Part shown: positions 61-61,577 of the stretch, in pieces
Position numbering within the stretch: the first letter of the stretch is position 1
Layout: the number at the start of each line of letters is the position of its first letter
DNA from: Naegleria gruberi
Taxonomy: Eukaryota
Direction: 5' to 3' (one strand)
NCBI GenBank assembly: GCA_000004985.1
Contig: GG738909.1
DNA: 64,000 bases
Made by a program: the position numbers and the translations under genes
Notes under the pieces: generated by a model
Database searches by the model: none
What the model was told of the DNA's origin: nothing
The model's input: the letters and a program-made list of their open reading frames with translations, nothing else

Positions 61-405
61 ATGAAAGATTTTGGACATAAACCAAATATACAACTCTTCA
101 ATATGCTAAATATGTACTTGAATGTTGGAAATTTTGAAAAAGCTCTAGAACTGTATAAAGAATTAAGAAATCAAGCCAATATTATCACTTGCAACATTCT
201 CATATCTGGATTAACTTTGAATGGGCAGGGTAAAGAAGCTATTAGGATATTCAAAGAAATGAATATAGCCCCTAATGGCACCACATTTGCTGCAGTGTTG
301 AATGCATGTAGTCATTGTGGATTAATTAAGGAAGGATTTCAAATCTATGAAAGTATGCAAACAAATCATGGTATTGAACCAGATGGTCGGACTTTTAATG
401 TTTGA
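61..405 (+). CDS. Pentatricopeptide-repeat (PPR) protein, C-terminal fragment. The gene is probably truncated by the window start, or its 5' exons lie upstream.
   Basis: The ORF translates to about three 35-aa PPR-like repeats (NIITCNILISGLTLNGQGKEAIRIFKEM...TFAAVLNACSHCGLIKEGFQIYESMQTNHGIEPD). An in-frame stop lies just upstream of the Met, so the true start or an intron is unresolved. Confidence 0.45.
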   Translation: MKDFGHKPNIQLFNMLNMYLNVGNFEKALELYKELRNQANIITCNILISGLTLNGQGKEAIRIFKEMNIAPNGTTFAAVLNACSHCGLIKEGFQIYESMQTNHGIEPDGRTFNV

Positions 406-426
406 CAACCAACCTACATTAAAAGT

Positions 427-1905
427 TATTGTAACCTTACAAAAAAACTATTATTGGAGAGATGGTGAACTTTGCTATTGTGGTAATTTCCCGCACTTTC
501 TATTTTCATTTTTCAACAACAAAAAAAACAAATCAAACAATTATTTAAATAATAATCTAAAACAATTGATAAGAAAGAAAATGTGTACTAATAATAATAA
601 TAATAATACTCTCACTGGTAAATTAATCATGAGAAAGAACAAGGAAGAAAGTATTGAAAAGGTTTTCCAATTAATTAATTTCGGAGGCTTGAATGAATCT
701 GTTAGAGAATTTGTTCAAGATTTGTCATCTGCTACTTCTTCTGATGAAGTGTTATTATCCACTTTCAAGATCAAGGCTATTGTTCCATCTTCTGAGAAGA
801 GAAAAACAATTTATATAATTAATAATGAAAATGATTTTTCTGAAATGATGAAATTAATTCAAGAAATTCCACAAGATAAACCAATTCTTTTCAGAGTAAT
901 GAAGAAGAAATTGAATCATGAAAAGAAGGAAAGAAAGGAAAAGAAAGAAAGAAAGGTCAAACTTCAATTGACTGAAGAACAATCTCAAAGTCTTTCCGAA
1001 AAGAAGCAACAAGTTGAATTATTGAAAGATGAAATTAAGATGAAGAAGGAACAAATCAAGACTATCAAATTTGAAATGAAATCTTTGAGAAAGTCATTCC
1101 ATCATGTCAATGTTAGCATTGACTCAAATGTTCCATCTACTATTAAGTCATCTCCAAACAAGGAAGAAAGACTTAAACTCAAACTTGAAAAGAAGGAAGA
1201 AAAGAAAGCTTTCAAATTGGAAAAGAAGTTACTCAAAGCTCAATACAAGCTTGAAAAGATTGCATTGAAGAAGCAAAGAAAGCAACAAGGAAATACTTCT
1301 ACTCAACCAGAAACTGTTTCAACTACCACAACTTCTAGTGAACCAACTGTTCCAATTAACGTACCTATTGTTGAACCAGTAATTGTTACTGTACCACCAG
1401 TTCAACAAGTAACAACTGAACCAGTTTCCAACAATGATGAGATTGTCACTCCAACTGTTGATGCAAGGCTCTTGTTGAAACTCCAAAAAAAGGAACAAAA
1501 GCATGCTTTGAAAATGGAAAAGAAACTTGAAAAACAAATAATCAAAGCTCAAAGAAAATTGGAGAAACAAGGTCAAAAGCAAGAGAGAAAGGAAAGAAAA
1601 TTGTTAGAAAAGCAACAAGTTACCACTCCTTCTCAAAATTAATATTAGTTTAGAATAATTTTAACAACTATCATCAGAGAACTATTCATCAATCGTAATT
1701 TCTCCCTCCACATTTGTTGTGTCTGAGAGAATGAATTGTGAAATAGATTTTACTGAGATAGTTTAATTGCACCAGTCAATCATGATATAGCTGGATTTAA
1801 GGATCATGAAACAAATCTAAACAATATCTTGTAAATAACAAAATAAATCAATGTTACACAATTGTATGGCAAGTTTTCTATTTATTGTGGGACTATTGTA
1901 AATAT
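427..1905 (+). repeat. Copy A of a roughly 1.5-kb segmental duplication. It is inverted relative to copy B at 30225-31714.
   Basis: About 95% nucleotide identity over 5' flank, CDS and roughly 260 nt of 3' flank, by eye alignment of reverse complements. The copies differ in (AAT)n length (6 vs 8 Asn codons) and a few substitutions. Confidence 0.8.
581..1642 (+). CDS. Lys/Glu-rich coiled-coil protein (about 353 aa) with a possible PB1-like N-terminal fold. This is duplicated gene copy A.
   Basis: ATG at 581 (MCTNNNNNN...) is in frame with track ORF 347..1642. The upstream extension of the track ORF is probably not coding. A near-identical paralogue lies on the minus strand at 30488..31555. 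Confidence 0.6.
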   Translation: MCTNNNNNNTLTGKLIMRKNKEESIEKVFQLINFGGLNESVREFVQDLSSATSSDEVLLSTFKIKAIVPSSEKRKTIYIINNENDFSEMMKLIQEIPQDKPILFRVMKKKLNHEKKERKEKKERKVKLQLTEEQSQSLSEKKQQVELLKDEIKMKKEQIKTIKFEMKSLRKSFHHVNVSIDSNVPSTIKSSPNKEERLKLKLEKKEEKKAFKLEKKLLKAQYKLEKIALKKQRKQQGNTSTQPETVSTTTTSSEPTVPINVPIVEPVIVTVPPVQQVTTEPVSNNDEIVTPTVDARLLLKLQKKEQKHALKMEKKLEKQIIKAQRKLEKQGQKQERKERKLLEKQQVTTPSQN

Positions 1906-1998
1906 GACAATGTACCAAAGGTTAGTTTAAAAAAAAGAAAACAAAGGTAAAGAAAAAGGAGTGAATACATTTATATTTCACACTTTAAGAAATTGAAT

Positions 1999-2116
1999 GG
2001 CTACGGCCATATCACGATGAATGCACCTCATCCCGTCCGATTTGAGAAGTTAAGCATCGTCGAGCCACATCAGTACTGAGGTTGGAGACAACTTGGGAAC
2101 CTGTGGTGCTGTAGTC
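1999..2116 (+). rRNA. 5S ribosomal RNA gene, copy 1 (118 nt)
   Basis: GGCTACGGCCATATCAC...GGTGCTGTAGTC. The 5' and 3' ends form helix I, and a TTTTTT RNA polymerase III terminator follows. Identical copies lie at 34416 and 45238. Confidence 0.85.
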
Positions 2117-2377
2117 TTTTTTCTTAAGAACAGAACTAAATGTAAGTTATCATATTCCTTCCGTTAAGTCTTGTCTTTTCACTCCTTAATTGCATATTTA
2201 TTTTGTAATGCGATCACACCGGCCAGAAATTTCATCATGAAAATTTTTTAGCCTTCAGAAAAAATTACTTGTCACCAAAACAAAAGAAAAATCAAGCAAA
2301 CTTGTTCACTCCAAGAAGAAGATCAAAGGTTAGCGATTTTGCAAGTGTAAATAAAGAGAACCAATAATAACAATAAC

Positions 2378-9972: not shown

Positions 9973-10044
9973 TCCCGTGTAGTCCAATGGCTAGGATACC
10001 TGGCTTTCACCCAGGAGGTCCGGGTTCAATTCCCGGCATGGGAG
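9973..10044 (+). tRNA. tRNA-Glu (anticodon TTC)
   Basis: Cloverleaf: acceptor TCCCGTG/CATGGGA, anticodon loop CTTTCAC, T-arm GGTTCAATTCC. Confidence 0.85.
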
Positions 10045-15985: not shown

Positions 15986-18900
15986 ATGACATCTCTCAAT
16001 GTTAATGTGTTTGACGATAGAGGTTCAAACAGTTCTCAAAGTAATTCGAGGGTGCTGCTCTCTCCACCTCAGGGAGCCAACAATTACTTACTAATTCCAA
16101 CCAGTAACTATGCAGGATCATCAGTATGTTCCTCTGACAGACATTCCAAAACTGACATTTCAGGTTCTGAAGTTAATGCGGTAACAAAACTGAAGAACTC
16201 GACTTTGGAGTTTGTACTCTTCATACAAGACAACCAAGTGAAGGAGGGAATCTATGGTTATGTGATAACCTTGTTGATTCACTTGTACATGTTTTGGATT
16301 GGAATTTTTCTACCAAATCTTGGACCAGAAATGATGTACGGAGATTGGGGAACATGGATTTTCTCAGTACTCAACTATGCTATTACTCTCTCATTTGAAA
16401 GGATCCCTTATAAGGGAGGTATTGTATTGGCTTTTATTGGAGTAGGTATTGTATTGGTATTTGTAATTCTATTGATCTGGACAATCTTTGCCTACAAGAC
16501 AACCTCCCAACATTTAAAGAACTCGAGAAGAGCTATTGCCATCTTTTCCAAAGTATTTCCATTCATATCAGTACCTCTCTTGTACTTGATGACATTCTCT
16601 CTTGATTGTAATTATACAGTAAGCTCATCAAATCTGAATAGATTTGAATTCTATTCCCATGAGGTGATCCAATGCCACGATACTAGCAATATTATATTTG
16701 TGGTGGTAATGATCTTGGCCATCCTGTTATTGATTATACTCAATGTATTCTCCATGCTCATTGTACCAAACTGCCATCCTCAAAATATAGCTCCATTTGT
16801 GACCGATAATCCAGTTTTCATGAGCTTGTTAGTTGCCTTCAATCTGTGGCAACTCTTTTTACACTTTATCATTCCAACACAATACTCTTTTATGAGAGCT
16901 ATTGTTCATAGTGTTGGATCTATTATTTTAATTATAATTTTTGCCAAGCTGATTCCATTCATTAGAAGAATTGAGAATAGTATTGTATTTGGTTGCCTGT
17001 TGGCTAGATTAGCTTCGAGTATTGGAGCTATTGTAACTTCTATTGTAAATAACCCATCCCTATCAAAGATACTGCCATCGGTGGATAATACACTTGGTGT
17101 TGGACTTGCAGGTCTAACTATTGGTTTGATTATTATTGGTTTTGTGCTTGGTTTCTCCCTTATGGAATTGTATACGAGATTTATTGTGAGATCTATTAGA
17201 AACTTTGTTCTGGAATGTATTCAATCAGATAATGATGAAACAAATCTAGATTCCAAAGAAACTGAAAAATACATTGAGAAAGAAGCACAAATTATTTATC
17301 AACAGTTGGTTGAGTCAAGAAAATTAAGGCACCTTAGAATATTCTTTAAATTTTCTATGAAATTCAAAGAAAAATATCCAACGGAAAAATCAGAAACGCC
17401 CACACAGCACAATCTACTCGATATTTATATTTGTATTGCTCTGATTAAGGGGTTCTCTTCCAATAACCAATTAGATAATGAGATTATCCTTCTCTCTAGT
17501 ATGATTATTGCAAATTATTTGCCAAACGAGGTCAATTCTACAACATTTGCTCAAGGACTTTTGAAGAAAGCTTTTAAAAGAAGACCATCCACTTACTATA
17601 ATTTATTAATTAGTCTAGCTCAAAAACAAGTAGAAGCAACGGTCTATCAAACCAATCCAGAGAGCAGAAACAATGTTGAAATGGCCAAGCTTATTGGTCA
17701 CTTAGAAAGAAGACAGGATGAATTACGAGCACTTCACAGAGCTTTCTGGAAGGAAATCATGCAAGAAAATATCAATCATGAAAAATGTGAATCTATTATT
17801 GTAAGGATTGGGATATTGTCTCATGAATGTGAAACTAAATTCAAGAATTTAATGCACATTTACAAAAACGACAAGACAGTTCTTCGATGTGTTGCTAAAT
17901 ATGTAGAATCTTTTAAATTCAATAAGGAAGCTGCTCAGGAATTATATTCTGAAGCAACAACAATTGAAGAAGAGGATTCCAAACGAATGAATGCCTCCTC
18001 TAAAAGAAGAATTAAAAAGAACCAAAAGAACAGAGTGCATCCTCAACAAATCAGTCACGCTTTTGAGACGTTATCTTATGGTGATGCTAATCATCATGAG
18101 GTAGAGTCCACTGTTGTAGGAGATTTGAATAACGATTTTGGTGGTGTTGAGAATAATCCAGAATTGAAGAAGGAGCTTCTGTTCAGGAATGCATTGGCCA
18201 TCTCACATAAGAATCATTCACATCTCACAATGTTTTTCATTTTCATTGTGCTATCCTTGCTAATTTTGGTTTCAACATTAGTAATGAGCTTGATGTTTTC
18301 GAATTATGTTACTGAGAGCGTACTTGTTGTGGATACTGCCTGTACACCGATTGCATCTGCTATTCGAATTGTTAGTGGAACAAGAAGTTATCAGAGCTCT
18401 CTATTGTTGTACAGTTCCAATTCATCAGCTTGGCCTTCATTATTGGCAGAATATGGCTACTCGAGCCTTTCTGAATTCAAGAAAGCTCACAAGAAAGAGC
18501 TAAGGGATAATATTGATTACTTAATTCTATTGAAAGAGCTAGCACAAACAGCCAAGTTTACCACTGATATGTACTCTGAATTTCATGAATACTACTATAG
18601 CTTTAATCAACCAAAGGCAAATACTAATGGTTTGGAAAAGATTTACAACTCTACCACAGCTATCAATATTACCATTGCAGATATTACTAATTTGGCTATA
18701 ACCTATTCAGAGCAGATTTACAAATTTGAAGATGAGGATTATCTACATACTTTCAGCAGTTATCCTTTCATGATACTATTCAACAATAGGAATATTATGA
18801 CAGCAGCTTATTCTTCATTCTGTTACAAATTTGTTGAGGAATCCAAGAGCTATACCAAGACGATTTCCAATACTTTTATTATTTACTACTCTTGCTCAAT

Positions 18901-21257
18901 TGTTGTTTATTTTACTTACACTGCTATTTATTTGTGCTTTGCAAGATTGGATTTGTCTTTTTTGAAAAAGCTTATTGTTTTATTGGAAAAGAATGTGTCA
19001 AAGCATGAAGCAGGAAAAATGTATCACAATTTGGGCAAGCTAGTCCAAGATGACAGCTCTGTAAGACCGGCCAAGAACTCTGCTTTATACCCTAGGAATG
19101 TTGTGGTAGGATTGGGAATTGTGACAGCAATCTGTGTTGCACTCTGTGCTGGTTTGTTCCTAGCTCAAACTCTCAGCAATTCTCAATACAGCTTTGAGTC
19201 CTATGTCACCATGAGGGATGCTTTCAATGCATTAGAAAACTCCCAATATATTGCAGAAGCGATAACTGAGGAATTCATTAATTTAAAAATTGCTGACAAA
19301 ACATTTATTAATGGATTGGTTTCATCTAATACTGAGCGTTCTGAATCTATTCAAGCATCAATTAAGAAATTAAGATTCTATTGGAATATGTGCATGTATG
19401 GGTCTAATTATTACCCAGATGAGACTCTTGTGATTGGTCTTTTCGAAAAGACTGATTTGATGATAAAGGGAGAAGCTAATTGTACATTTGAAAAGATGAT
19501 TTCACATAATTGCAGCATTGGTGTTGATAAATTGATCACAACTTACACGACTAAAGCCACACAACTCACAGAAGATATTGATCTCAAATCAACAACATTT
19601 GAATCATTATTTGATGACTATTTGGTAGTTAGTTTTTTCTCTACCTATGTAAGCAATTCATTACTGTCATTTTCAGATGTATTTGCTATGGCTGCCTCTG
19701 TTCCATCAGACAAGTTGGTGATTCCATTTGCCATTCTTGGATTTTTGACTTTGTTTATATTCTCGATTGGTATTTACATGTCAATGGGAAAGTATTTCAA
19801 TTCAGTCCAACAACTGCGTCTTCTTTTCAATTATCTACCTCTAGACTTGATGGACTCAAACGAAAATATTAAGAATTATATTGTACATCATCATCTTCCT
19901 GACTCATTCTCAAACATTTTTAGAAGAAAGAAAGGTTCTTCATCAGAGGGCGACTCAAAAGTTCGAAGCATTTTGAACGCATCTGTAGATGGAGCAGTGA
20001 TGTGCAGTGGAGAGAAGGTTGATATTGAAATATTCAATCCAGCAGCTCAAAAGATATTTGGATATAATCAAACAGAAACGATTGGCAGATCATTGTATCA
20101 ATTATTTGAAAAGAATGAGCAATCGAAAATTAAAAACCTCATTGATGAAATGTTAGTGAATGCAGCAAGAGGTGATTCGAAAGGAGATTCTATTGAATTG
20201 GAATGTATCAGAAAGAATCAAACAAGCTTCCCATCACGTGTCAATATTTTTGCCACTCTTCACAATTCTCAAAGTGTTGTCACTTGTTTCATTAAGGATA
20301 TTACAACAGAGAAGAAGCATAATTCATTATTGACAGAAGAAAAGAAACATTCTGAAGAATTATTATTGAATATTTTACCAAGTGCAGTGGCAAGTAAATT
20401 GAAATCAGGAGAAACTTATATTGCAGAGAAATTCAATGATGTTTCATGTTTTTTTAGTGACATGGTTGGATTTACAAAATTAAGTACTGGAATTCAAGCA
20501 TCTGAATTGGTTCAAATGTTGAATGAAATTGTAATTGGATTTGATGATTTGACAGACAAATATAATTTGGAAAAGATTAAAACGATTGGAGATTCATATT
20601 TTTGTGTGGGTGGATTACATGGATTAAATGCACAATCAGATCATCCTGAAAGAATTTTGAGATTTTCCATTGATACATTTGATGTTTTACAAAGATTTAA
20701 TTCAAAATCAGGAAAACAACCATCTGAACAAATTAATATTCGTGTTGGTATTAATACTGGAAGTGTTATTGCAGGTGTTATTGGGAGGAAGAAATTTGCC
20801 TATGTATGTTTTTAATTTCAACATTTTAACATTTTATTGTGTAAATTGTACATTTTCAATATTTCATATTAATATATTAATTAAATAGGATTTATGGGGA
20901 GATACAATTAATACAGCTTCAAGAATGGAATCTAATTCAATTCCAGGAAGAATTCAAATTTCCAGATCAACCTATGAAAGAGTTTATGATTTGGGTTTCA
21001 CTTTTGAAGAAAGACATTTAAATGTGAAAGGAAAGGGTGAATGTATTGCTTACATGTTGCATGAGAAACATCACACTCCAGCTCTTGTTCCATCCTTCAC
21101 TGACATGTTGAGAACAAGTTTAAACATTTTACAAAAGAAAAATTCTGCAAATCTTGAAACATTGAATGAACCCAAAACACCAACAAGAAACAATGATAAT
21201 ATTACCTTGACAATCAATCAAGAAGCCTACCTATCTCCAAATAATACTTTGGAGTAA
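15986..21257 (+). CDS. Polytopic PAS-domain class III adenylyl cyclase of about 1730 aa. Model is join(15986..20803,20889..21257).
   Basis: A 1609-codon exon encodes a multi-TM N-terminal block, further TM helices and a PAS-like segment. The cyclase core FFSDMVGFTKLS...KIKTIGDSYFCVGGL...GVIGRKKFAY|DLWGDTINTASRMES spans an 85-nt GTATGT...AG intron. Both metal Asp, the specificity Lys and Asp, and the transition-state Asn/Arg are present. Confidence 0.8.
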
Positions 21258-30048: not shown

Positions 30049-30224
30049 CGTCGATACACTTTGAAATATTTGTTTTTGTGTTTTGATGGTGCCCCTGTTT
30101 ATATTAACTGCGAGATGATTGTTTGTACGATGCTACAAGCTTACTAATATCTCATAAATCTGCTACCGTATTGAACGTTTACGGTTGTGATACAGTATTT
30201 GAATACAAAATACAATCTAACATG

Positions 30225-31714
30225 TGCAATAGTCTCACAATAAATAGAAAACTTGCCATACAATTGTGTAACATTGATTTATTTTGTTATTTACAAGATA
30301 TTGTTTAGATTTGTTTCATGATCCTTAAATCCAGCTATATCATGATTGACTGGTGCAATTAAAATATCTCAGTAAAATCTATTTCACAATTCATTCTCTC
30401 AGACACTACACAACAAATGTGGAGGGAGAAATTATGATTGATGAATACTTCTCTGATGATAGTTGTTAAAATTATTCTAAACTAATATTAATTTTGAGAA
30501 GGAGTGGCAACTTGTTGCTTTTCCAACAATTTTCTTTCCTTTCTCTCTTGCTTTTGAGCTTGTTTTTCCAATTTTCTTTGAGCTTTGATTATTTGCTTTT
30601 CAAGTTTCTTTTCCATTTTCCAAGCATGCTTTTGTTCCTTCTTTTGGAGTTTCAACAAGAGCTTTTCATCAACAGTTGGTGTGACAATATCAGCATTGTT
30701 GGAAACTGGTTCAGTTGATACTTGTTGAACTGGTGGTACAGTAACAATTACTGGTTCAACAATAGGTACGTTAATTGGAACAGTTGGTTCACTATAAGTT
30801 GTGGTAGTTGAAACAGTTTCTGGTTGAGTAGAAGTATTTCCTTGTTGCTTTCTTTGCTTCTTCAATGCAATCTTTTCAAGCTTGTATTGAGCTTTGATCA
30901 ACTTCTTTTCCAATTTAAATGCTTTCTTTTCTTCCTTCTTTTCAAGTTTGAGTTTAAGTCTTTCTTCCTTGTTTGGAGATGACTTAATAGTAGATGGAAC
31001 ATTTGAGTCAATGCTAACATTGACAGGATGGAATGACTTTCTCAAAGATTTCATTTCAAATTTTAGAGTCATGATTTGTTCCTTCTTCATCTTAATTTCA
31101 TCTTTCAATAATTCAATTTGTTGCTTCTTTTCGGAAAGACTTTGAGATTGTTCTTCAGTCAATTGAAGTTTGACCTTTCTTTCTTTCTTTTCCTTTCTTT
31201 CCTTCTTTTCATGATTCAATTTCTTCTTCATTACTCTGAAAAGAATTGGTTTATCTTGTGGAATTTCTTGAATTAATTTCATCATTTCAGAAAAATCATT
31301 TTCATTATTAATTATATAAATTGTTTTTCTCTTCTCAGAAGATGGAACAATAGCCTTGATCTTGAAAGTGGATAATAACACTTCATCAGAAGAAGTAGCA
31401 GATGGTAAATCTTGAACAAATTCTCTAACAGATTCATTCAAGCCTCCGAAATTAATTAATTGGAAAACCTTTTCAATACTTTCTTCCTTGTTCTTTCTCA
31501 TGATTAATTTACCAGTGAGAGTATTATTATTATTATTATTATTATTAGTACACATTTTCTTATCAATTGTTTTAGATTATTTAAATAATTGTTTGATTTG
31601 TTTTTTTTGTTGGTTGAAAAATGAAAATAGAAAGGGTGGGAAATTTTATTTCATTCCACAACAGCAAAGTTCACCATCTCTCCAAAAATAGTTTTTTTGT
31701 AAGGTTACAACAAC
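30225..31714 (-). repeat. Copy B of the roughly 1.5-kb segmental duplication, inverted relative to copy A at 427-1905
   Basis: Its reverse complement aligns with 427-1905, including the UTR-like flanks. Confidence 0.8.
30488..31555 (-). CDS. Lys/Glu-rich coiled-coil protein, duplicated gene copy B (355 aa)
   Basis: Near-identical to 581..1642. It has 8 Asn codons rather than 6 and a few substitutions (for example ADIVTPTVDEK vs DEIVTPTVDAR). Confidence 0.6.
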   Translation of the reverse strand: MCTNNNNNNNNTLTGKLIMRKNKEESIEKVFQLINFGGLNESVREFVQDLPSATSSDEVLLSTFKIKAIVPSSEKRKTIYIINNENDFSEMMKLIQEIPQDKPILFRVMKKKLNHEKKERKEKKERKVKLQLTEEQSQSLSEKKQQIELLKDEIKMKKEQIMTLKFEMKSLRKSFHPVNVSIDSNVPSTIKSSPNKEERLKLKLEKKEEKKAFKLEKKLIKAQYKLEKIALKKQRKQQGNTSTQPETVSTTTTYSEPTVPINVPIVEPVIVTVPPVQQVSTEPVSNNADIVTPTVDEKLLLKLQKKEQKHAWKMEKKLEKQIIKAQRKLEKQAQKQERKERKLLEKQQVATPSQN

Positions 31715-31786
31715 TTAATTAACGCCAATCTTGCTTCACCTTTAATAAAAACAAGAACAAATTTCCAATACTCAACTCTTTCAACT

Positions 31787-33960: not shown

Positions 33961-34385
33961 TGTTTTTGAGATGTTTTTTATGTTTGAATTGAATTTGAAT
34001 GAGGATGTTGTTAGGTGGTTATTTATATGTTTGAAAGATTGTGTTTTGAGTACTAATAGTTTGTTTCCAAATGTAAAATTGACAAAAAAGGAGTGTCTGG
34101 TTAATTTGGAAAGGTTGTTGAGTAAAAATGGAGTTGACTAAAATGTAACATTTCATTTATGTTTAATAATGGAATAAGAGGTTTGTTAATCATTTTTTAT
34201 ATTGTTTGATGAAATATTTAAGGATAATAGCGAAAATGCCTCTTATTTAGCCAAGTATAGTGAAAATCTTAAATATGGAATCTCAATAAATTTGGATAAA
34301 AGAAGGGTTGGATTTGAATTCTTGGAGAGATGATACCTTTCGGATAGGTATCGATTTAAATAATAACCAGCACAATGGGGAAATA

Positions 34386-34415
34386 GTACATATTTCACAT
34401 TTTAAGTAATTGAAT
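34386..34415 (+). promoter_or_regulatory. Conserved roughly 30-nt element immediately upstream of each 5S gene, a putative RNA polymerase III upstream promoter element
   Basis: CATATTTCACATT(T/G)TAAGTAA(T/C)TGAAT is conserved at 34386-34415 and 45208-45237. A diverged version lies at 1968-1998. Downstream flanks are not conserved. Confidence 0.4.
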
Positions 34416-34533
34416 GGCTACGGCCATATCACGATGAATGCACCTCATCCCGTCCGATTTGAGAAGTTAAGCATCGTCGAGCCACATCAGTACTGAGGTT
34501 GGAGACAACTTGGGAACCTGTGGTGCTGTAGTC
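34416..34533 (+). rRNA. 5S ribosomal RNA gene, copy 2
   Basis: 118/118 identical to copy 1, followed by a TTTTTT terminator. Confidence 0.85.
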
Positions 34534-35128
34534 TTTTTTACTTTAACAGGTTTTTCAACATTAGCTGATTTTATGTTACGGTAGTCTTTTTGTCAACAAT
34601 GAAGTATTTGGTTATACCTAATTAGATGTTTTTGATGGTGATGATGCTGAAAGTCGCTTTTGAGTTTGAACTTTGTTAAACTCTTGAATGGAACCAGGCT
34701 TGAAATTTATTGAAATTAATCATTTCAACAGTTTGCATTTGAAATTTGCTTTGAATTATAATCAAGATTCTTTAATTTGTTGCTCCACAACTTGTCCATA
34801 TAATGAAATATCATGATTTGGTTGATATCAATATTTCAAGGAGATTGAGTGGCTCTTTTATAACATTCAATGATTTAAGGTTGGGAAATTTAAAACTGAA
34901 TTAATTCAGTGAACAAAGATAACGTTTGATGTCATCCTCGTTAACAAAACAAATTACAATAATAAATAATAATTGCACCACGTTACCCTTATTACTCTTC
35001 TTCCTCAAGGAGTTTTTCTATCCAATCGCGTAGAATATAGTCGGCATTCGGATACGATCGGTTTTAAGTCCCGCTCTAAGCAAGAACGTTCTATCATCAA
35101 AAAACTTCAATTTTTAAATTTAAAAAAA

Positions 35129-43219: not shown

Positions 43220-44704
43220 TCACTCAATAAAACCATAATTTTTCTTTTTCAGTTGCTTTTTCATACGTTTCAGATACTTGTTTCCATTGTCTATTCCATT
43301 ATCATATACATTTAAATGTTTTAATTTCTTCATTTTGGATAGGTATTTCACTCCTGAATCTTCAATAAAATTCTCAGAAATATCCAGACGTGTTAAGTGT
43401 TTCAATTTAGATAAGGATTTAGCACCTTCAGTTTCAATACTATTTCTATGAACATCAAGTTCAGTCAATTTTTCCAGCTTGCTTATAGATTCAGCTCCTT
43501 CATTTCCAATTGAAATTTCAGAAATCCAAAGTTTAATCAATTGATTCAATCCACTTATTAGTTTTGCCCCCTCATCTCCTAAATTATTAGCTGATATATC
43601 TAAAAAAGTTAAATTTGTCATTTCACTAATTGATTTGGTGCCATCTATTCCTATTAAAGTTGAGTGCATATAAAGTGTTTTCAATTGTTTCATTTCACTT
43701 ATTACCTTTGCACCAGCGTCACCAATCCAGTTGTCACCAATATTCAGACTGATCAGTTGTTTCAAAGAGGTTATTGATTGGACTCCATCAACTGAAACAA
43801 TTTGTATTGCATGAGCTGACAAATTAGTTAATTGTTTCAATTCACATATAAACTTAATTCCTTCCTCATCAATTCCATTTAATCCAACACTCAGATCAGT
43901 CAAATTTTTCATTTGACTAATACATTTGCATCCTTCTGTCCTTATTTCGTTATGATCTATGTCAAGTTTTGTTAGTTGACTTAGTTCTATCAAAGATTTT
44001 ACACCACTATCATCAATACCATTTTCACTTATTTCAAGGCTTGTCAATTGTTTCATTCCAATCATTGATTCAATACCCAAGTTTGTGATCTTACACTTAC
44101 TAATATTTAGAATAGTCAGTTTTTCAAGTTTTGATAAATATTCAACAGCCTTATAACCAATATCATTATAGCCAATACTCAATTCCGTAAGATTAATCAA
44201 ATTACCAATTGATTGAGTTGCTTCCGAACTAATCACATTACTTATCAGATCAAGTTTCTTCAATTGGTCCATCTTACTAATAATTTTAGCACCATCATCA
44301 TCAATTAAATAGGAATCAAATACCAGAGTTTGCAAATTCTTAAACTTCCCAAATACCTTTAAACTTTCATTACATATTTTCGATTCCTCCGTAAAGTGCA
44401 CTCCACAAATACATTCCAAAAATTGGCTCCTTTCCATTAATTTAATTCTTTCCTCATCAATGGGCTGTTTAAATTTCAAATAAATTTCCGAACGTTCCTT
44501 GATTACTCTCATCCATTGTCTTGATATACGAGTGTAATTTTTCAAAACAAACCAATTTGAATATTTACCTCCTATAAGAAAGGAAATAATTTCAAAACAA
44601 ATGTCATCGGGAAATTCTTTAATTTCATGCTGATGACTGATTATTACTTGGTTATTCTCTTCTGTGAAGTTGGGATCAATTCCTGTTTCTCGTAATCGTT
44701 TCAT
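43220..44704 (-). CDS. Leucine-rich-repeat protein (RNI/RanGAP-like LRRs), about 495 aa
   Basis: Many 28-aa LRRs (LxxLxxLxLxxNxIgdeGak). The start is inferred at the internal Met (MKRLRETG). The longer track ORF to 44911 runs antisense through tRNA-Gln and is not credible as coding. Confidence 0.55.
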   Translation of the reverse strand: MKRLRETGIDPNFTEENNQVIISHQHEIKEFPDDICFEIISFLIGGKYSNWFVLKNYTRISRQWMRVIKERSEIYLKFKQPIDEERIKLMERSQFLECICGVHFTEESKICNESLKVFGKFKNLQTLVFDSYLIDDDGAKIISKMDQLKKLDLISNVISSEATQSIGNLINLTELSIGYNDIGYKAVEYLSKLEKLTILNISKCKITNLGIESMIGMKQLTSLEISENGIDDSGVKSLIELSQLTKLDIDHNEIRTEGCKCISQMKNLTDLSVGLNGIDEEGIKFICELKQLTNLSAHAIQIVSVDGVQSITSLKQLISLNIGDNWIGDAGAKVISEMKQLKTLYMHSTLIGIDGTKSISEMTNLTFLDISANNLGDEGAKLISGLNQLIKLWISEISIGNEGAESISKLEKLTELDVHRNSIETEGAKSLSKLKHLTRLDISENFIEDSGVKYLSKMKKLKHLNVYDNGIDNGNKYLKRMKKQLKKKNYGFIE

Positions 44705-44810
44705 TTTTTTTATTGTAAAAACAAATCGACTCTTTCGCAATAGCAGCGAGCCAAAACCAAGCCTAACCTTAATTGATGTAAGATTTACTGCCTTTTTACA
44801 ATAATGTGCT

Positions 44811-44881
44811 CGTCTCGTGGTGTAATGGTAGCATAGTGGACTTTGAATCCATTGACGGAGGTTCGATTCCTCCCGAGACGG
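44811..44881 (+). tRNA. tRNA-Gln (anticodon TTG)
   Basis: Acceptor CGTCTCG/CGAGACG, anticodon loop CTTTGAA, T-arm GGAGGTTCGATTCCTCC. Confidence 0.8.
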
Positions 44882-45237
44882 TAAACGTGGCGAGCCATAC
44901 GAATTTTGCATGTGGACGATAACTATTTTTTTACTTTCCTGGTATAGCCATTTCTTGAAATACCATTAGAATCGAAAATATTAATTGGGTTTTTTGAAAT
45001 TGTTCAGATATTTATGTAATGTACAAAAGGAATTCAAAGAAGAGGAATATTAACTTTCTATTGGAATTCTAGTGATATTTTTGAGACTTTGCATATTTCT
45101 ATTGGGAATACTATTTTGGACGCTTTTCAGTTTAACAATATCTTTAGAAATTCGTTCCTATTGCGATAAAGGAATATTCTTTATATTCATTGTATTAAGG
45201 GAAAATTGTTCATATTTCACATTGTAAGTAACTGAAT

Positions 45238-45355
45238 GGCTACGGCCATATCACGATGAATGCACCTCATCCCGTCCGATTTGAGAAGTTAAGCATCGTC
45301 GAGCCACATCAGTACTGAGGTTGGAGACAACTTGGGAACCTGTGGTGCTCTAGTC
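45238..45355 (+). rRNA. 5S ribosomal RNA gene, copy 3
   Basis: One substitution relative to copies 1 and 2 (GCTCTAGTC vs GCTGTAGTC near the 3' end), followed by a T-run. Confidence 0.85.
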
Positions 45356-45505
45356 TTTTTATATTCATTTTGACTTTTGTGAAATTAGTCTTGGTTTTTA
45401 TTCATTTAATACTTGAATTAATACTATTGATAGCTATGTAAAAAATATTTTAAAATAATTTCCTGAAACATTCATGAATAGTGTATATTTACTTTGAATA
45501 TAATG

Positions 45506-45578
45506 GGGATGTAGCTCACATGGTAGAGCGCTTCTTTAGCATGGAAGAGGTACGGGGATCGATACCCCGCATCTCCAC
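45506..45578 (+). tRNA. tRNA-Ala (anticodon AGC)
   Basis: GGGGATGTAGCTCA...TTAGCAT...GGGATCGATACCCC...CATCTCCA. It has the G3:U70 Ala identity pair, and a T-run follows. Confidence 0.85.
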
Positions 45579-49552: not shown

Positions 49553-49768
49553 TGTTGTGTGAAATATATTATTGTTTGGTTGTTTTTTTTTGTTGTGAAA
49601 TACAGCTATCTGATCGTGTGTTAATAATAGCTTAATGCAAAATATTTTCACCCACTTTTGCTTGAAGCAAGTTTTTTTGCGACGGATGGTATCTTGCTAC
49701 AAATATCTTTGCTTCAAAACCACCCGAAAATATTCAATCATATGTTGTTTAAATTTTATTAACCAGAT

Positions 49769-49859
49769 GGTGAGTTGGTCGAGTGGTCTAAGACGACACG
49801 TTAAGGTATGCCTAATACCGTGTTCCGCAAGGGCGTGGGTTCAAATCCCACACTCATCA
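49769..49859 (+). tRNA. tRNA-Leu (class II, anticodon AAG) with a probable 11-nt intron at 49807-49817
   Basis: Acceptor GGTGAGT/ACTCATC, D-arm GTCGAGTGGTCTAAGAC, anticodon stem ACACG/CGTGT enclosing TTAAGG plus insert, long variable arm, T-arm GTGGGTTCAAATCCCAC. Confidence 0.7.
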
Positions 49860-50035
49860 ATTTTTTATCTCATCTCAAGCTGATCAATTTGAAAAGTGAA
49901 GTATTCAGAATATTGTATTTTATAGAGCAACTGAACTGAATGAAGAATAATGATATTAGTGTTCGTAGGTGATTGGTTTCAAAGATTAAGAAAGGTGAAA
50001 TATTCCAAAATGAAAAAACTTAAATACTTTTTACT

Positions 50036-59936: not shown

Positions 59937-61577
59937 ATGAAACGAAAACATCAAGCAACTATTGTAACACCAACCCCAGTTGAAGATGATGGTCATCGTG
60001 TTCCTGATCAACATGTAACAAACTATGATATTTTCGAACACTATTCAAAGAAAGCTAAAAATTCAATTTTTCAGAAGGACGACCTGGAGACAGATCGTTT
60101 CCACTGCGATTATTGCAAGAAGGACATTTCATCATCGTTGAGAATACGTTGTGCTGAGTGTGATGAATTTGATTTGTGTGCTGATTGCTTTTTTGTTGGT
60201 GTAGAAACAAAAGAACATAAGAATGATCATGCCTATCGGGTGATGGAATATTTGCAAGCTCCTCTCCTATCTACAACATGGACAGCTGATGAAGAATTAC
60301 AACTCCTTGAAGGAATCTCCCAGAAGGGTCTAGGAAATTGGTTAGATATTGCCGAACACATAGGCAAGCAAAAATCAAAATATGAATGTGAATATCACTA
60401 TTGGACACTCTATGTAGATAGGCCAATTGCAAAGAGAAGAGCCTTATTGGAGAAGATTAAAACTCAGAAAGTTGTTGATGATTCAACGGGTTCATCAAGT
60501 GAAGACACTGAAATTTATGTACCTGTTCCAGATACTAAAGCTCCAATTCAAAATGAAAAGATGAACATTTCCAAGAAGGATCTGAAAAAAGATGATGATG
60601 GTATCATTTGGTCTGTAAGAAAGGAGTTATCCCTTCCACCAGTGAATATGCAAACTATTTTCAATGAGAATGTAAAGGCGCATCCAGAATGTGCCAAGTT
60701 TGTGATGGGAACTCTCCTTTCTAGGGAGCCAATTATTGTTGGTAATAGAAAGAATGTTCAGCAATTGGGTCAAGATATAGGTTATCTGCCTCTGAGAGCA
60801 GATTTTGAGACAGATTTCGATTACTGTGCTGAAGATATCATTGCAGAGTTGGAAATTCTCCCTACTGACACACCTGAAGAAAAGGAAAAGAAACTAGATT
60901 ATTTGAGATTATACGAATTTAGATTAAGTGAAAGAGAACGAAGAAAAAAGTTTGCTGTTGAAAGGGGTTTATTCGATTGGAAGAGAATCAGTGCTGTTGA
61001 AAAGAAGAGAAACAAGATGGAAAAAGAATTGTATCAACGATATAGACCATTTGCCAGATTCCTGGACGATCAAGATGAGTTTGACTCTTTCATGGCTGGG
61101 GTTATTCAAGAGACTAAGATAAGAAATAGAATTCAACAACTTAAAGAATATAGAGCTAATGGTTTAACATCTTTGGAACAATGTGACTTGTTTGAATCTG
61201 AAAACAAAAAGAGAGAAGCAGATTTTGACCTGAAGAAAGCTAGAGAGGGTAATATCAAATCTCCTTCAATTAAGAGAAATGCAGAGGTAATTACTGGTAC
61301 ACCAAAAGATCCAAACATGGTTGGTATTGAAATGTTGTCAAAGAGGGAACGTAGTTTCTGTGTTGGTTTACAACTCTATCCAAAGCATTACATACTTATT
61401 AAGGATGTTTTGATAAGAGAATCGGTGCAATTAGGATTTGTCTCAAAGGCAACAGCTTGTAAATTATTTACTGATTTTGAAAAGGACGTTATTTCAAAAA
61501 TTCACGACTTTTTTGTTTCAAATAATTGGATTCTTGGTGCTCCACAAGCTACACAAGAAGGCAGTTCAGGTAAATAA
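59937..61577 (+). CDS. Transcriptional adaptor ADA2 (ZZ zinc finger + SANT + SWIRM)
   Basis: ZZ finger CDYCKKDISSSLRIRCAECDEFDLCADCF...H, SANT domain WTADEELQLLEGISQKGLGNWLDIAEHIG, and a C-terminal SWIRM-like region. Single exon. Confidence 0.85.
   Translation: MKRKHQATIVTPTPVEDDGHRVPDQHVTNYDIFEHYSKKAKNSIFQKDDLETDRFHCDYCKKDISSSLRIRCAECDEFDLCADCFFVGVETKEHKNDHAYRVMEYLQAPLLSTTWTADEELQLLEGISQKGLGNWLDIAEHIGKQKSKYECEYHYWTLYVDRPIAKRRALLEKIKTQKVVDDSTGSSSEDTEIYVPVPDTKAPIQNEKMNISKKDLKKDDDGIIWSVRKELSLPPVNMQTIFNENVKAHPECAKFVMGTLLSREPIIVGNRKNVQQLGQDIGYLPLRADFETDFDYCAEDIIAELEILPTDTPEEKEKKLDYLRLYEFRLSERERRKKFAVERGLFDWKRISAVEKKRNKMEKELYQRYRPFARFLDDQDEFDSFMAGVIQETKIRNRIQQLKEYRANGLTSLEQCDLFESENKKREADFDLKKAREGNIKSPSIKRNAEVITGTPKDPNMVGIEMLSKRERSFCVGLQLYPKHYILIKDVLIRESVQLGFVSKATACKLFTDFEKDVISKIHDFFVSNNWILGAPQATQEGSSGK

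What the first reader, a model, noticed from the sequence alone, without database searches (positions are those of the whole stretch)
1968..2116. Dispersed, co-oriented 5S rRNA genes with a conserved upstream box
Three 118-nt 5S genes sit at 2.0, 34.4 and 45.2 kb. They are all on the + strand, each with a T6 terminator. Each is preceded by the element CATATTTCACATTNTAAGTAANTGAAT, while the 3' flanks are unrelated. Copy 3 carries a G-to-C change in helix I. Solitary chromosomal 5S genes with a private upstream promoter-like box are worth noting. Some dictyostelids carry 5S on extrachromosomal rDNA.
Basis: partly seen in the sequence, partly recalled or inferred. Interest (0 to 1): 0.5.

Follow-up and report, generated by a model that had tools for sequence, protein, structure and literature searches.

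The report
Naegleria gruberi dispersed 5S rRNA genes

Summary
Rfam finds three full-length 5S rRNA genes on the + strand (1999-2117, 34416-34534, 45238-45356). Each has a 26-27-nt upstream box and a T-run terminator, and the flanks beyond are unrelated. The window is Naegleria gruberi scaffold_65, not a dictyostelid. Feng et al. 2012 (PMC3369914, Table S1) already list these three loci among 279 putative 5S genes. They also report an internal control region, an upstream TATA box, no linkage to the rDNA unit, and no detectable TFIIIA. Their coordinates show a dispersed family (117 scaffolds, median gap 34 kb). The box is not part of a larger repeat or LTR: the shared unit is about 162 nt, and no solo boxes occur. 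Conservation is asymmetric: 23/30 invariant columns upstream, chance level after the T-run. This favours a Pol III upstream promoter element, with ATATTT at -26..-21. A second, unidentified lineage shows a TATA-like consensus at the same position. The rest of the box is lineage-specific: it is absent from an N. fowleri copy and degenerate in a relative whose 5S is 99% identical. 5S positions are not syntenic between species. Copy 3 carries a helix I mismatch (C6·C113) and a 12-nt flanking direct repeat that hints at insertion. Interest is low.

The parts
1999..2117 (+). 5S rRNA gene, copy 1 (identical to copy 2)
   Evidence: Rfam RF00001 scores 105.4 bits over model positions 1-120. The canonical three-helix fold has MFE -41.5 kcal/mol. 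It corresponds to scaffold_65:98002 in Feng 2012 Table S1.
1960..1998 (+). Upstream box of copy 1. The core is 1973-1998 (ATATTTCACACTTTAAGAAATTGAAT), with a TATA-like TATATTT at -27..-21. A 4-nt insertion relative to copies 2 and 3 lies at about -24.
2118..2122 (+). Remainder of the T-run Pol III terminator of copy 1. The T6 run follows ...GTAGTC and starts at 2117, the last gene nucleotide by Rfam.
   Evidence: Sequence read directly.
34416..34534 (+). 5S rRNA gene, copy 2
   Evidence: Rfam scores 105.4 bits. It corresponds to scaffold_65:130419 in Table S1.
34377..34415 (+). Upstream box of copy 2. The core is 34390-34415 (ATATTTCACATTTTAAGTAATTGAAT). A weaker conserved stretch, GGGGAAATAGTAC, reaches about -40.
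45238..45356 (+). 5S rRNA gene, copy 3. This is a variant with G113->C (window 45350), giving a C6·C113 mismatch in helix I.
   Evidence: Rfam scores 98.5 bits and flags the non-canonical pair. The MFE drops to -36.0 kcal/mol and helix I is lost from the MFE structure. It is the only one of 10 sequences that breaks pair 6-113. It corresponds to scaffold_65:141241 in Table S1.
45199..45237 (+). Upstream box of copy 3. The core is 45212-45237 (ATATTTCACATTGTAAGTAACTGAAT).
45180..45191 (+). Upstream member of an exact 12-nt direct repeat, TTTATATTCATT, flanking the copy-3 cassette. It may be a target-site duplication.
   Evidence: 0/300 shuffles reach 12 nt. The empirical null from real sequence gives P(>=12) = 0.0026 overall and 0.013 in AT-rich contexts.
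45358..45369 (+). Downstream member of the 12-nt direct repeat. It starts inside the T5 terminator of copy 3.

Best explanation
The three elements are functional members of the dispersed nuclear 5S rRNA gene family of Naegleria gruberi. Each is a self-contained RNA polymerase III unit of about 165 bp, made of an upstream region of about 27-40 bp, the 119-nt gene with its internal control region, and a T5-T6 terminator.

The upstream box is most likely the gene-external part of the Pol III promoter. A TATA-like element (ATATTT/TATATTT at -26..-21) would place TBP/TFIIIB about 25-30 bp upstream of +1. The remaining proximal sequence down to -1 would be a species-specific start-site-proximal context. 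Selection would retain it in every active copy while all other flanking DNA drifts.

What is shown:
- the identity and structure of the genes;
- the extent and asymmetry of the conserved unit;
- the species specificity of the box;
- the genome-wide dispersal.

What is inferred:
- that TBP/TFIIIB binds the box;
- that the box is required for transcription.

Copy 3 is a slightly damaged variant with a helix I C·C mismatch. It may be expressed but is probably sub-optimal.
For: Gene identity:
- Rfam scores are far above threshold for all three copies.
- The canonical fold is predicted, and 13/39 pairs show compensatory changes across Naegleria-type 5S sequences.

Organism and prior catalogue:
- The ADA2-like ORF is a 100% protein match to N. 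gruberi.
- The 5S spacings of 32417 and 10822 equal those of scaffold_65 entries 98002/130419/141241 in Feng 2012 Table S1.
- That paper reports an ICR, an upstream TATA box, TFIIIB and TFIIIC subunits present, and TFIIIA not found.

Box specificity:
- The box gives 3 matches against 0 expected.
- The repeat unit is only 162 nt.
- There are no solo boxes or relics.

Asymmetry:
- 23/30 invariant columns at -30..-1, against chance (0.083 per column) beyond the T-run on the 3' side and beyond about -40 on the 5' side.
- Passive spill-over of gene conversion would be expected on both sides.
- The box varies at 4/26 positions against 1/119 in the gene. That is intermediate constraint, as expected for a promoter.

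Independent lineage: nine dispersed copies from an unidentified eukaryote share almost nothing upstream except an A-T-A-T-A consensus at -27..-23 and T/C near -6..-1. This is a TATA-like motif at the same position.

Precedent: TATA elements at -30/-24 assist TFIIIB recruitment on Pol III genes of S. pombe and plants (PMC7279448).

Demand: the CERE rDNA circle is present at about 4000 copies and lacks 5S. A few hundred chromosomal 5S genes must therefore be efficiently transcribed (inference).
Against: - ATATTT is a weak, non-canonical TATA in a 67% A+T genome, so a match at about -25 is not rare.
- The single N. fowleri copy retrieved has no TATA-like motif and only about 35% identity to the box.
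- A relative with a 99% identical 5S (L008) has an indel-ridden version of the box. The long box is therefore not under deep conservation.
- Only three N. gruberi copies could be examined.
- There are no expression or transcription data.
- Shared ancestry of a recently amplified cassette could by itself explain the similarity to -40.
Confidence: 0.62

Rival explanations
1. The box is a passive by-product of common descent or concerted evolution. The ~165-bp cassette was amplified recently from a master copy, or is homogenised by gene conversion whose tracts include about 40 bp upstream. The box has no promoter role, and transcription depends only on the internal control region.
For: - The box is species-specific. 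It is absent in the N. fowleri copy and degenerate in L008, even though the 5S genes are 96-99% identical.
- The genes are almost identical within the genome at 118/119 positions, which implies homogenisation or recent origin.
- 5S positions are not syntenic between species, so copies turn over quickly.
Against: - Conservation is strongly one-sided: 23/30 invariant columns upstream against chance immediately after the T-run. Conversion tracts or arbitrary duplication end-points should leave similarity on both sides and ragged boundaries.
- An unrelated lineage keeps a TATA-like consensus at the same distance.
Confidence: 0.2
2. The 5S genes spread as discrete mobile cassettes of box, gene and terminator, through an insertion mechanism that duplicates about 12 bp of target. 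The mechanism could be retroposition of a 5'-extended transcript or DNA-mediated capture. The box is conserved because it is part of the inserted unit. This is compatible with the box also being a promoter.
For: - Copy 3 is flanked by an exact 12-nt direct repeat whose inner edges (-46 and the T-run) coincide with the limits of the conserved unit.
- The empirical chance of a repeat of 12 nt or more in this geometry is 0.003-0.013.
- One environmental copy (L007) has a 9-nt repeat with the same geometry.
- 5S positions differ between Naegleria species at two tested loci.
- 279 copies lie on 117 scaffolds with irregular spacing.
Against: - Only 1 of 3 N. gruberi copies, and 1-2 of 14 copies overall, shows a flanking repeat. 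The L007 repeat is not significant after multiple testing.
- A third, imperfect copy of the same motif lies 43 nt downstream, so the site is locally repetitive.
- There is no A-rich tail and no LINE- or SINE-like body.
- The unit includes sequence upstream of the normal Pol III start site, which a retroposed canonical transcript would lack.
Confidence: 0.22
3. The long box is the binding site of a lineage-specific 5S transcription factor that replaces TFIIIA. That would make the N. gruberi 5S promoter essentially gene-external, like a type 3 promoter.
For: - Feng et al. 2012 found no TFIIIA in N. gruberi although TFIIIB and TFIIIC subunits are present.
- The box is much longer (26-40 nt) than a TATA element.
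- It is 5S-specific. The four tRNA genes in the window share only scattered 6-7-mers with it.
Against: - TFIIIA is notoriously divergent, and a BLAST-based absence is weak evidence.
- The 5S sequence retains ICR-like boxes.
- The box is not conserved in N. fowleri or in L008, which a dedicated factor-site pair would predict unless the pair co-evolves rapidly.
Confidence: 0.1

Closest known systems
Naegleria gruberi 5S rRNA gene family as catalogued by Feng et al. 2012 (PLoS One 7:e36878, PMC3369914)
   Same: These are the same genes. Table S1 lists scaffold_65 98002, 130419 and 141241, which are the three window copies. The paper also reports an ICR, an upstream TATA box, T-run terminators, and no linkage to the rDNA unit.
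   Different: The text of the paper mentions only a TATA box. It does not describe the 26-40-nt conserved box, its species specificity, or the sharp cassette boundaries. Its Table 1 scores the arrangement as 'tandem', whereas its own coordinates show dispersal, with a median gap of 34 kb and no repeated period.
Dispersed 5S rRNA genes of fungi, namely Schizosaccharomyces pombe (~30 copies), Yarrowia lipolytica (108 copies) and Neurospora crassa
   Same: In these fungi the 5S genes are unlinked to the rDNA and scattered through the genome as individual Pol III units (PMC2566860). S. pombe Pol III genes use a TATA element at -30/-24 (PMC7279448). From my own knowledge, not checked here: N. crassa 5S genes share a short conserved 5' region with a TATA box needed for transcription (Selker et al. 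1981; Tyler 1987).
   Different: This is a different eukaryotic supergroup (Heterolobosea, Discoba). The box here is longer and runs right up to +1. There are no tRNA-5S dicistronic fusions of the Yarrowia type: the nearest tRNA gene ends 355 nt upstream of copy 3, and each 5S has its own box.
Type 1 Pol III promoter (internal control region bound by TFIIIA) of Xenopus and yeast 5S genes
   Same: The gene keeps box A / IE / box C-like sequences (Feng 2012) and ends in a T-run.
   Different: A conserved gene-external element is present, and TFIIIA has not been found in N. gruberi. How much the promoter depends on the ICR versus the upstream box is unknown.
Retroposed 5S copies and 5S-derived SINEs of vertebrates
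   Same: The copies are dispersed, and one is flanked by a short direct repeat.
   Different: There is no A-tail and no LINE-derived 3' part. The copies are full-length and structurally intact, and they include about 40 nt upstream of the transcription start. They are bona fide genes rather than pseudogenes.

Membership tests
Eukaryotic nuclear 5S rRNA gene (Rfam RF00001) | Covariance-model score above the curated gathering threshold over the full model | tested here: met
   Scores are 105.4, 105.4 and 98.5 bits against a threshold of 38, over model positions 1-120 with no truncation.
Eukaryotic nuclear 5S rRNA gene (Rfam RF00001) | Three-way-junction secondary structure (helices I-V) supported by covariation | tested here: met
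   The MFE structure equals the canonical fold for copies 1/2 and for N. fowleri. 13 of 39 pairs show compensatory changes in 10 sequences. Copy 3 breaks one helix I pair.
Eukaryotic nuclear 5S rRNA gene (Rfam RF00001) | Pol III terminator (run of 4 or more T) immediately 3' of the gene | tested here: met
   The runs are T6, T6 and T5 directly after ...GTAGTC.
Eukaryotic nuclear 5S rRNA gene (Rfam RF00001) | Expression and incorporation into ribosomes | not testable with these tools
   No RNA data are available. Small-RNA-seq distinguishing G113 from C113 would test copy 3.
Pol III gene with an upstream TATA-type core element (S. pombe / plant / N. crassa style) | TATA-like motif centred about -30 to -24 relative to the start site | tested here: met
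   ATATTT lies at -26..-21 in 3/3 copies, and copy 1 has TATATTT. The motif is non-canonical. An A-T-A-T-A consensus at -27..-23 appears in 9 copies of another lineage.
Pol III gene with an upstream TATA-type core element (S. pombe / plant / N. crassa style) | Element conserved among dispersed copies while the surrounding flanks diverge | tested here: met
   23/30 invariant columns at -30..-1, against chance beyond -40 and beyond the T-run.
Pol III gene with an upstream TATA-type core element (S. pombe / plant / N. crassa style) | Element conserved in related species | tested here: inconclusive
   The N. fowleri copy has no TATA-like motif and 35% identity to the box. L008 has ATTATAG at about -22 and 53% identity. 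There is only one copy per species.
Pol III gene with an upstream TATA-type core element (S. pombe / plant / N. crassa style) | Element required for accurate or efficient transcription (TBP/TFIIIB binding) | not testable with these tools
   This needs in vitro transcription or ChIP.
Tandem 5S rDNA array | Head-to-tail repeats with a constant unit length including the spacer | tested here: not met
   Spacings in the window are 32417 and 10822 nt, with unrelated spacers that contain protein genes. Genome-wide there are 162 gaps with a median of 33.9 kb, and no gap length recurs.
5S linked to the rDNA unit (dictyostelid palindrome / Naegleria CERE / yeast rDNA repeat) | 5S located within the 18S-5.8S-28S repeat or on the extrachromosomal rDNA element | tested here: not met
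   Rfam finds no other rRNA in the window. The window is chromosomal DNA with protein genes. The CERE papers list only 18S, 5.8S and 28S.
Transposon LTR or larger repeat carrying the box | Box occurs inside a longer repeated unit, or without an adjacent 5S gene | tested here: not met
   The only repeat family is 162 nt. There are no solo boxes at up to 6 substitutions and no relics.
Retroposed Pol III transcript / SINE-like element | Target-site duplications flanking the copies | tested here: inconclusive
   A 12-nt exact repeat flanks copy 3 only. None of 7 nt or more flanks copies 1 or 2.
Retroposed Pol III transcript / SINE-like element | 5' end at the transcription start, and an A-rich or LINE-derived 3' tail | tested here: not met
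   The unit includes about 40-46 nt upstream of +1 and ends in the T-run with no A-tail.

The most novel reading that the evidence does not exclude
N. gruberi 5S genes may propagate as autonomous ~165-bp promoter-gene-terminator cassettes, through an insertion mechanism that leaves ~12-bp target-site duplications. Copy 3 would be a recent insertion. The unusually long, rapidly evolving upstream box would then be the dominant promoter, compensating for a missing or highly divergent TFIIIA in Heterolobosea.
Probability: 0.12. Interest if true: 0.55.

Novelty: already known. Interest (0 to 1): 0.18.

Why it matters
It matters little beyond annotation. The finding correctly flags real Pol III genes that automated protein-centred annotation ignores. 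It also illustrates that Naegleria, whose large rRNAs sit on a ~4000-copy extrachromosomal circle, keeps 5S as a few hundred scattered chromosomal genes. That arrangement poses a dosage-coordination problem between Pol I and Pol III templates.

Two modestly useful points go beyond the 2012 catalogue. First, the family is dispersed, not tandem as that paper's summary table states. Second, the conserved upstream element is a 26-40-nt, species-specific box rather than just a TATA box.

If the cassette-insertion or TFIIIA-replacement reading were confirmed, it would bear on how 5S families disperse and on Pol III promoter evolution in Discoba. The present evidence for either is thin.

Tried and rejected
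1. Dictyostelid origin: rejected. There is a 100% protein match to N. gruberi, and the 5S coordinates match scaffold_65.
2. Box as part of an LTR or larger repeat: rejected.
3. Tandem array: rejected.
4. Fetching more N. gruberi 5S copies: the N. gruberi assembly is not in the gene-position index. Scans of bacterial/archaeal genomes and of viral contigs with an internal 5S pattern found nothing.
5. Synteny of 5S positions:
   - The N. fowleri 5S at L001:4447-4565 has no counterpart next to the orthologous gene in the window.
   - The 5S next to the ABHD11-like gene in L008 is absent from the orthologous loci of N. lovaniensis, Willaertia magna and N. fowleri-type assemblies.
6. Identifying the second environmental lineage (VFQM/VFQO contigs): uninformative. 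The best hits are about 40% identical across mixed taxa, so I do not claim it is a heterolobosean.
7. Shared motif with tRNA upstream regions: only scattered 6-7-mers (TAAGTA, TATATTT, TCATAT) at varying distances. With four tRNAs in AT-rich DNA this is not evidence.
8. Target-site duplications as a general feature: found convincingly for copy 3 only.
9. Co-orientation: three 5S genes on one strand has P = 0.25. All seven Pol III genes on one strand has P = 0.016 uncorrected. I treat this as a passing observation.

Full report
**Observation**

Rfam (RF00001) finds three full-length 5S rRNA genes, all on the + strand:
- 1999-2117, 105.4 bits
- 34416-34534, 105.4 bits
- 45238-45356, 98.5 bits

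Copies 1 and 2 are identical. Copy 3 differs by one G->C change (position 113, window 45350), which Rfam marks as a non-canonical helix I pair.

Each gene is followed directly by a T-run: T6, T6 and T5. Each is preceded at -26..-1 by ATATTTCACAYTKTAAGWAAYTGAAT. Allowing 3 mismatches, this pattern occurs only at these three places in 64 kb, with none expected from shuffles.

The only direct-repeat family in the window is a 162-nt unit running from about -39 to +123. Beyond it the flanks do not align.

- The genes are 119 nt by Rfam, not 118.
- Copy 3 has T5.

**Where the window comes from**

The window encodes eukaryotic proteins, including a PAS/TPR adenylate cyclase, LRR proteins, a SET-MYND protein and ADA2, at about 33% G+C. 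The ADA2-like ORF (59937-61577) is 100% identical over its full length to an NCBI Naegleria gruberi protein on a 250,472-bp contig. The N. fowleri orthologue is 57% identical.

The start-to-start spacings of the three 5S genes are 32,417 and 10,822 nt. These are exactly the spacings of the entries scaffold_65 98002, 130419 and 141241 in Table S1 of Feng et al. 2012 (PMC3369914). The window is thus N. gruberi scaffold_65, roughly 96001-160000. The dictyostelid framing is wrong.

**What was already known**

Feng et al. 2012 searched the N. gruberi genome and reported the following:
- 279 putative 5S genes;
- an internal control region;
- an upstream TATA box and T-run terminators;
- no linkage to the rDNA unit;
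- TFIIIB and TFIIIC subunits present;
- no detectable TFIIIA.

Their Table 1 scores the arrangement as tandem. When I analysed their coordinates, the 279 entries fell on 117 scaffolds. The 162 within-scaffold gaps have a median of 33.9 kb, only 9 are under 2 kb, and no gap length recurs. The family is therefore dispersed with loose clusters.

Naegleria's 18S, 5.8S and 28S genes lie on a circular extrachromosomal element (CERE) of about 14-16 kb, present at about 4000 copies. The CERE papers list no 5S on it. Chromosomal 5S is thus expected, and these exact loci were already catalogued.

**Is the box part of something larger?**

No. There are no additional copies of the box, even at up to 6 substitutions. 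There are no 5S relics in the window. No box-like sequence occurs in any of the loci fetched from other species.

**Shape of the conservation**

Anchored at +1, the counts of invariant columns among the three copies are:

| Region | Invariant columns |
|---|---|
| -10..-1 | 8/10 |
| -20..-11 | 8/10 |
| -30..-21 | 7/10 |
| -40..-31 | 3/10 |
| further upstream | chance (0.083 per column) |
| gene | 118/119 |
| first 10 nt downstream (the T-run) | 5/10 |
| further downstream | chance |

Constraint on the box is therefore intermediate, with 4 variable sites in 26. The conservation is strongly one-sided. Passive spill-over of gene conversion, or arbitrary duplication end-points, should leave similarity on both sides. 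A one-sided block ending exactly at +1 is what a gene-external promoter element looks like.

**Comparison with relatives**

A fetched N. fowleri locus contains a 5S gene (L001:4447-4565) that is 95.8% identical to the N. gruberi gene. Its differences are compensatory: CCACA...TGTGG becomes CTGCA...TGCAG, and a G·U becomes G-C.

A metagenome scan with an internal 5S pattern returned 13 contigs:
- One contig, L008, has a 5S 99.2% identical to N. gruberi. It comes from a different vahlkampfiid: its neighbouring ABHD11-like protein is only 52-58% identical to the Willaertia and N. lovaniensis proteins.
- The others belong to an unidentified eukaryote with a 5S about 80% identical, present as at least nine dispersed copies.

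Across 10 of these sequences, 13 of 39 predicted base pairs show compensatory changes. These are real, constrained genes.

The upstream regions tell a different story. Identity to the N. gruberi box is 35% for the N. fowleri copy, which has no TATA-like motif. It is 53% for L008, which has ATTATAG at about -22 and retains TAAGTA and GAT, but with indels. Background identity is about 27-30%.

Within the unidentified lineage, the nine copies share only 40% identity at -27..-1. Their column consensus is nevertheless A-T-A-T-A at -27..-23, plus T at -6 and -2 and C at -1. This puts a TATA-like motif at the same distance as N. gruberi's ATATTT (-26..-21).

The element that recurs across lineages is therefore a TATA-like motif at about -25. 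The remainder of the N. gruberi box is lineage-specific and evolves quickly.

**Mechanism proposed**

Each locus is an autonomous Pol III transcription unit. The upstream box supplies a TATA-like site that positions TBP/TFIIIB about 25-30 bp upstream of +1. TATA elements at -30/-24 do this on Pol III genes of S. pombe and plants (PMC7279448). The ICR, the start-site-proximal sequence and the T-run complete the unit.

The genes, their limits, the asymmetry and the species specificity are shown. Factor binding and a functional requirement for the box are inferred.

With about 4000 CERE copies and only a few hundred 5S genes, efficient promoters on each 5S copy would be advantageous. This too is inference.

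**Copy 3**

The G113->C change converts the C6-G113 pair into C·C. Copy 3 is the only one of ten sequences to break this pair. The predicted MFE rises from -41.5 to -36.0 kcal/mol, and helix I disappears from the MFE structure. The box and the terminator (T5) are intact. It is probably an expressed but sub-optimal variant, or a young copy on the way to decay. An analogous helix I mismatch (G7·A112) occurs in one environmental copy, L009.

**An unexpected detail**

Copy 3 is flanked by an exact 12-nt direct repeat, TTTATATTCATT, at 45180-45191 and 45358-45369. The inner edges of the repeat, at -46 and inside the T-run, coincide with the limits of the conserved unit.

No mononucleotide shuffle reaches 12 nt (0/300). 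An empirical null from real window sequence with the same geometry gives P = 0.0026 overall and 0.013 in equally AT-rich contexts.

This looks like a target-site duplication. Together with the lack of synteny of 5S positions between species, it hints that the box-gene-terminator cassette inserts as a unit.

Several points weaken this reading:
- Copies 1 and 2, the N. fowleri copy and L008 show nothing comparable.
- The 9-nt repeat around L007 is not significant after 14 tests.
- A third, imperfect copy of the motif lies 43 nt downstream.
- There is no A-tail.
- The unit includes sequence upstream of the normal start site.

I treat it as a lead with a probability of about 0.2, not a finding.

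**Comparison with known systems**

The closest match is the N. gruberi 5S family itself as published in 2012. In kind, it resembles the dispersed 5S families of S. pombe, Y. lipolytica (PMC2566860) and Neurospora, together with TATA-assisted Pol III promoters.

It is not a tandem 5S array, not rDNA-linked, not a Yarrowia-type tRNA-5S fusion, and not a SINE or retropseudogene.

**Verdict**

The finding is real, correctly described in its essentials, and correctly judged not to be part of a transposon. It is, however, an already catalogued and ordinary feature of this genome.

The incremental points are:
- the length and species specificity of the box;
- the dispersed rather than tandem arrangement;
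- one possible insertion signature.

Interest is about 0.18. The most novel reading not excluded is mobile promoter-gene cassettes with a dominant upstream promoter in a TFIIIA-poor lineage. I give it about 0.12 probability, and it would be moderately interesting if true.

Noticed in passing
window 423-1914 and 30211-31716: An inverted segmental duplication of about 1.5 kb at 96-98% identity. It carries paralogous ORFs, 347-1642 (+) and 30488-31555 (-), with no Pfam match. One arm ends 85 nt upstream of 5S copy 1, but the other arm has no 5S next to it.
   Followed up: partly
window 1999-49860 (3 5S genes and 4 tRNA genes): All seven Pol III genes in the window are on the + strand: 5S x3, tRNA-Glu 9973-10044, tRNA-Gln 44810-44882, tRNA-Ala 45505-45578, and an intron-containing tRNA at 49768-49860. 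The uncorrected probability is 2*(1/2)^7 = 0.016. Feng 2012 Table S1 gives no strands, so this could not be tested genome-wide.
   Followed up: no
window 44810-45578: A compact Pol III cluster, tRNA-Gln - 5S (copy 3) - tRNA-Ala, lies within 770 bp, all co-oriented. The 5S has its own box and is separated from the tRNAs by 355 and 148 nt, so it is not a Yarrowia-type dicistronic fusion.
   Followed up: partly
window 49768-49860: A 93-nt tRNA gene, presumably intron-containing, is recognised by Rfam (47.4 bits). ARAGORN cannot assign its anticodon.
   Followed up: no
window 43220-44911 (-): The mechanical LRR-protein ORF extends over tRNA-Gln on the opposite strand. Its true start is probably a downstream ATG.
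   Followed up: no
Feng et al. 2012 (PMC3369914), Table 1 versus Table S1: The paper's summary table scores N. gruberi 5S genes as 'tandem'. Its own coordinates show 279 entries on 117 scaffolds with a median gap of 34 kb and no recurring period. Several CERE papers also state that all Naegleria rDNA is extrachromosomal, which overlooks the chromosomal 5S.
   Followed up: yes
L002 (position 1) and L003:1-110: Two short-read N. fowleri-type assemblies break at, or next to, the 5S gene that is intact in the long-read assembly (L001:4447-4565). This is consistent with 5S being a dispersed repeat in N. fowleri too.
   Followed up: partly
L004-L015 (VFQM/VFQO metagenome contigs): An unidentified eukaryote has at least nine dispersed 5S copies. 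Helix II differs between copies by fully compensatory changes (GCATAG/CTGTGC, GTGTAG/CTGCAC, GCGTAG/CTGCGC, GCTGAG/CTCAGC). These are either several related species or within-genome 5S variants.
   Followed up: partly
window 15986-20815: A large ORF (1609 aa) combines TmcB-like TPR repeats, a PAS domain and an adenylate/guanylate cyclase catalytic domain. This is typical of the expanded cyclase repertoire of Naegleria.
   Followed up: no
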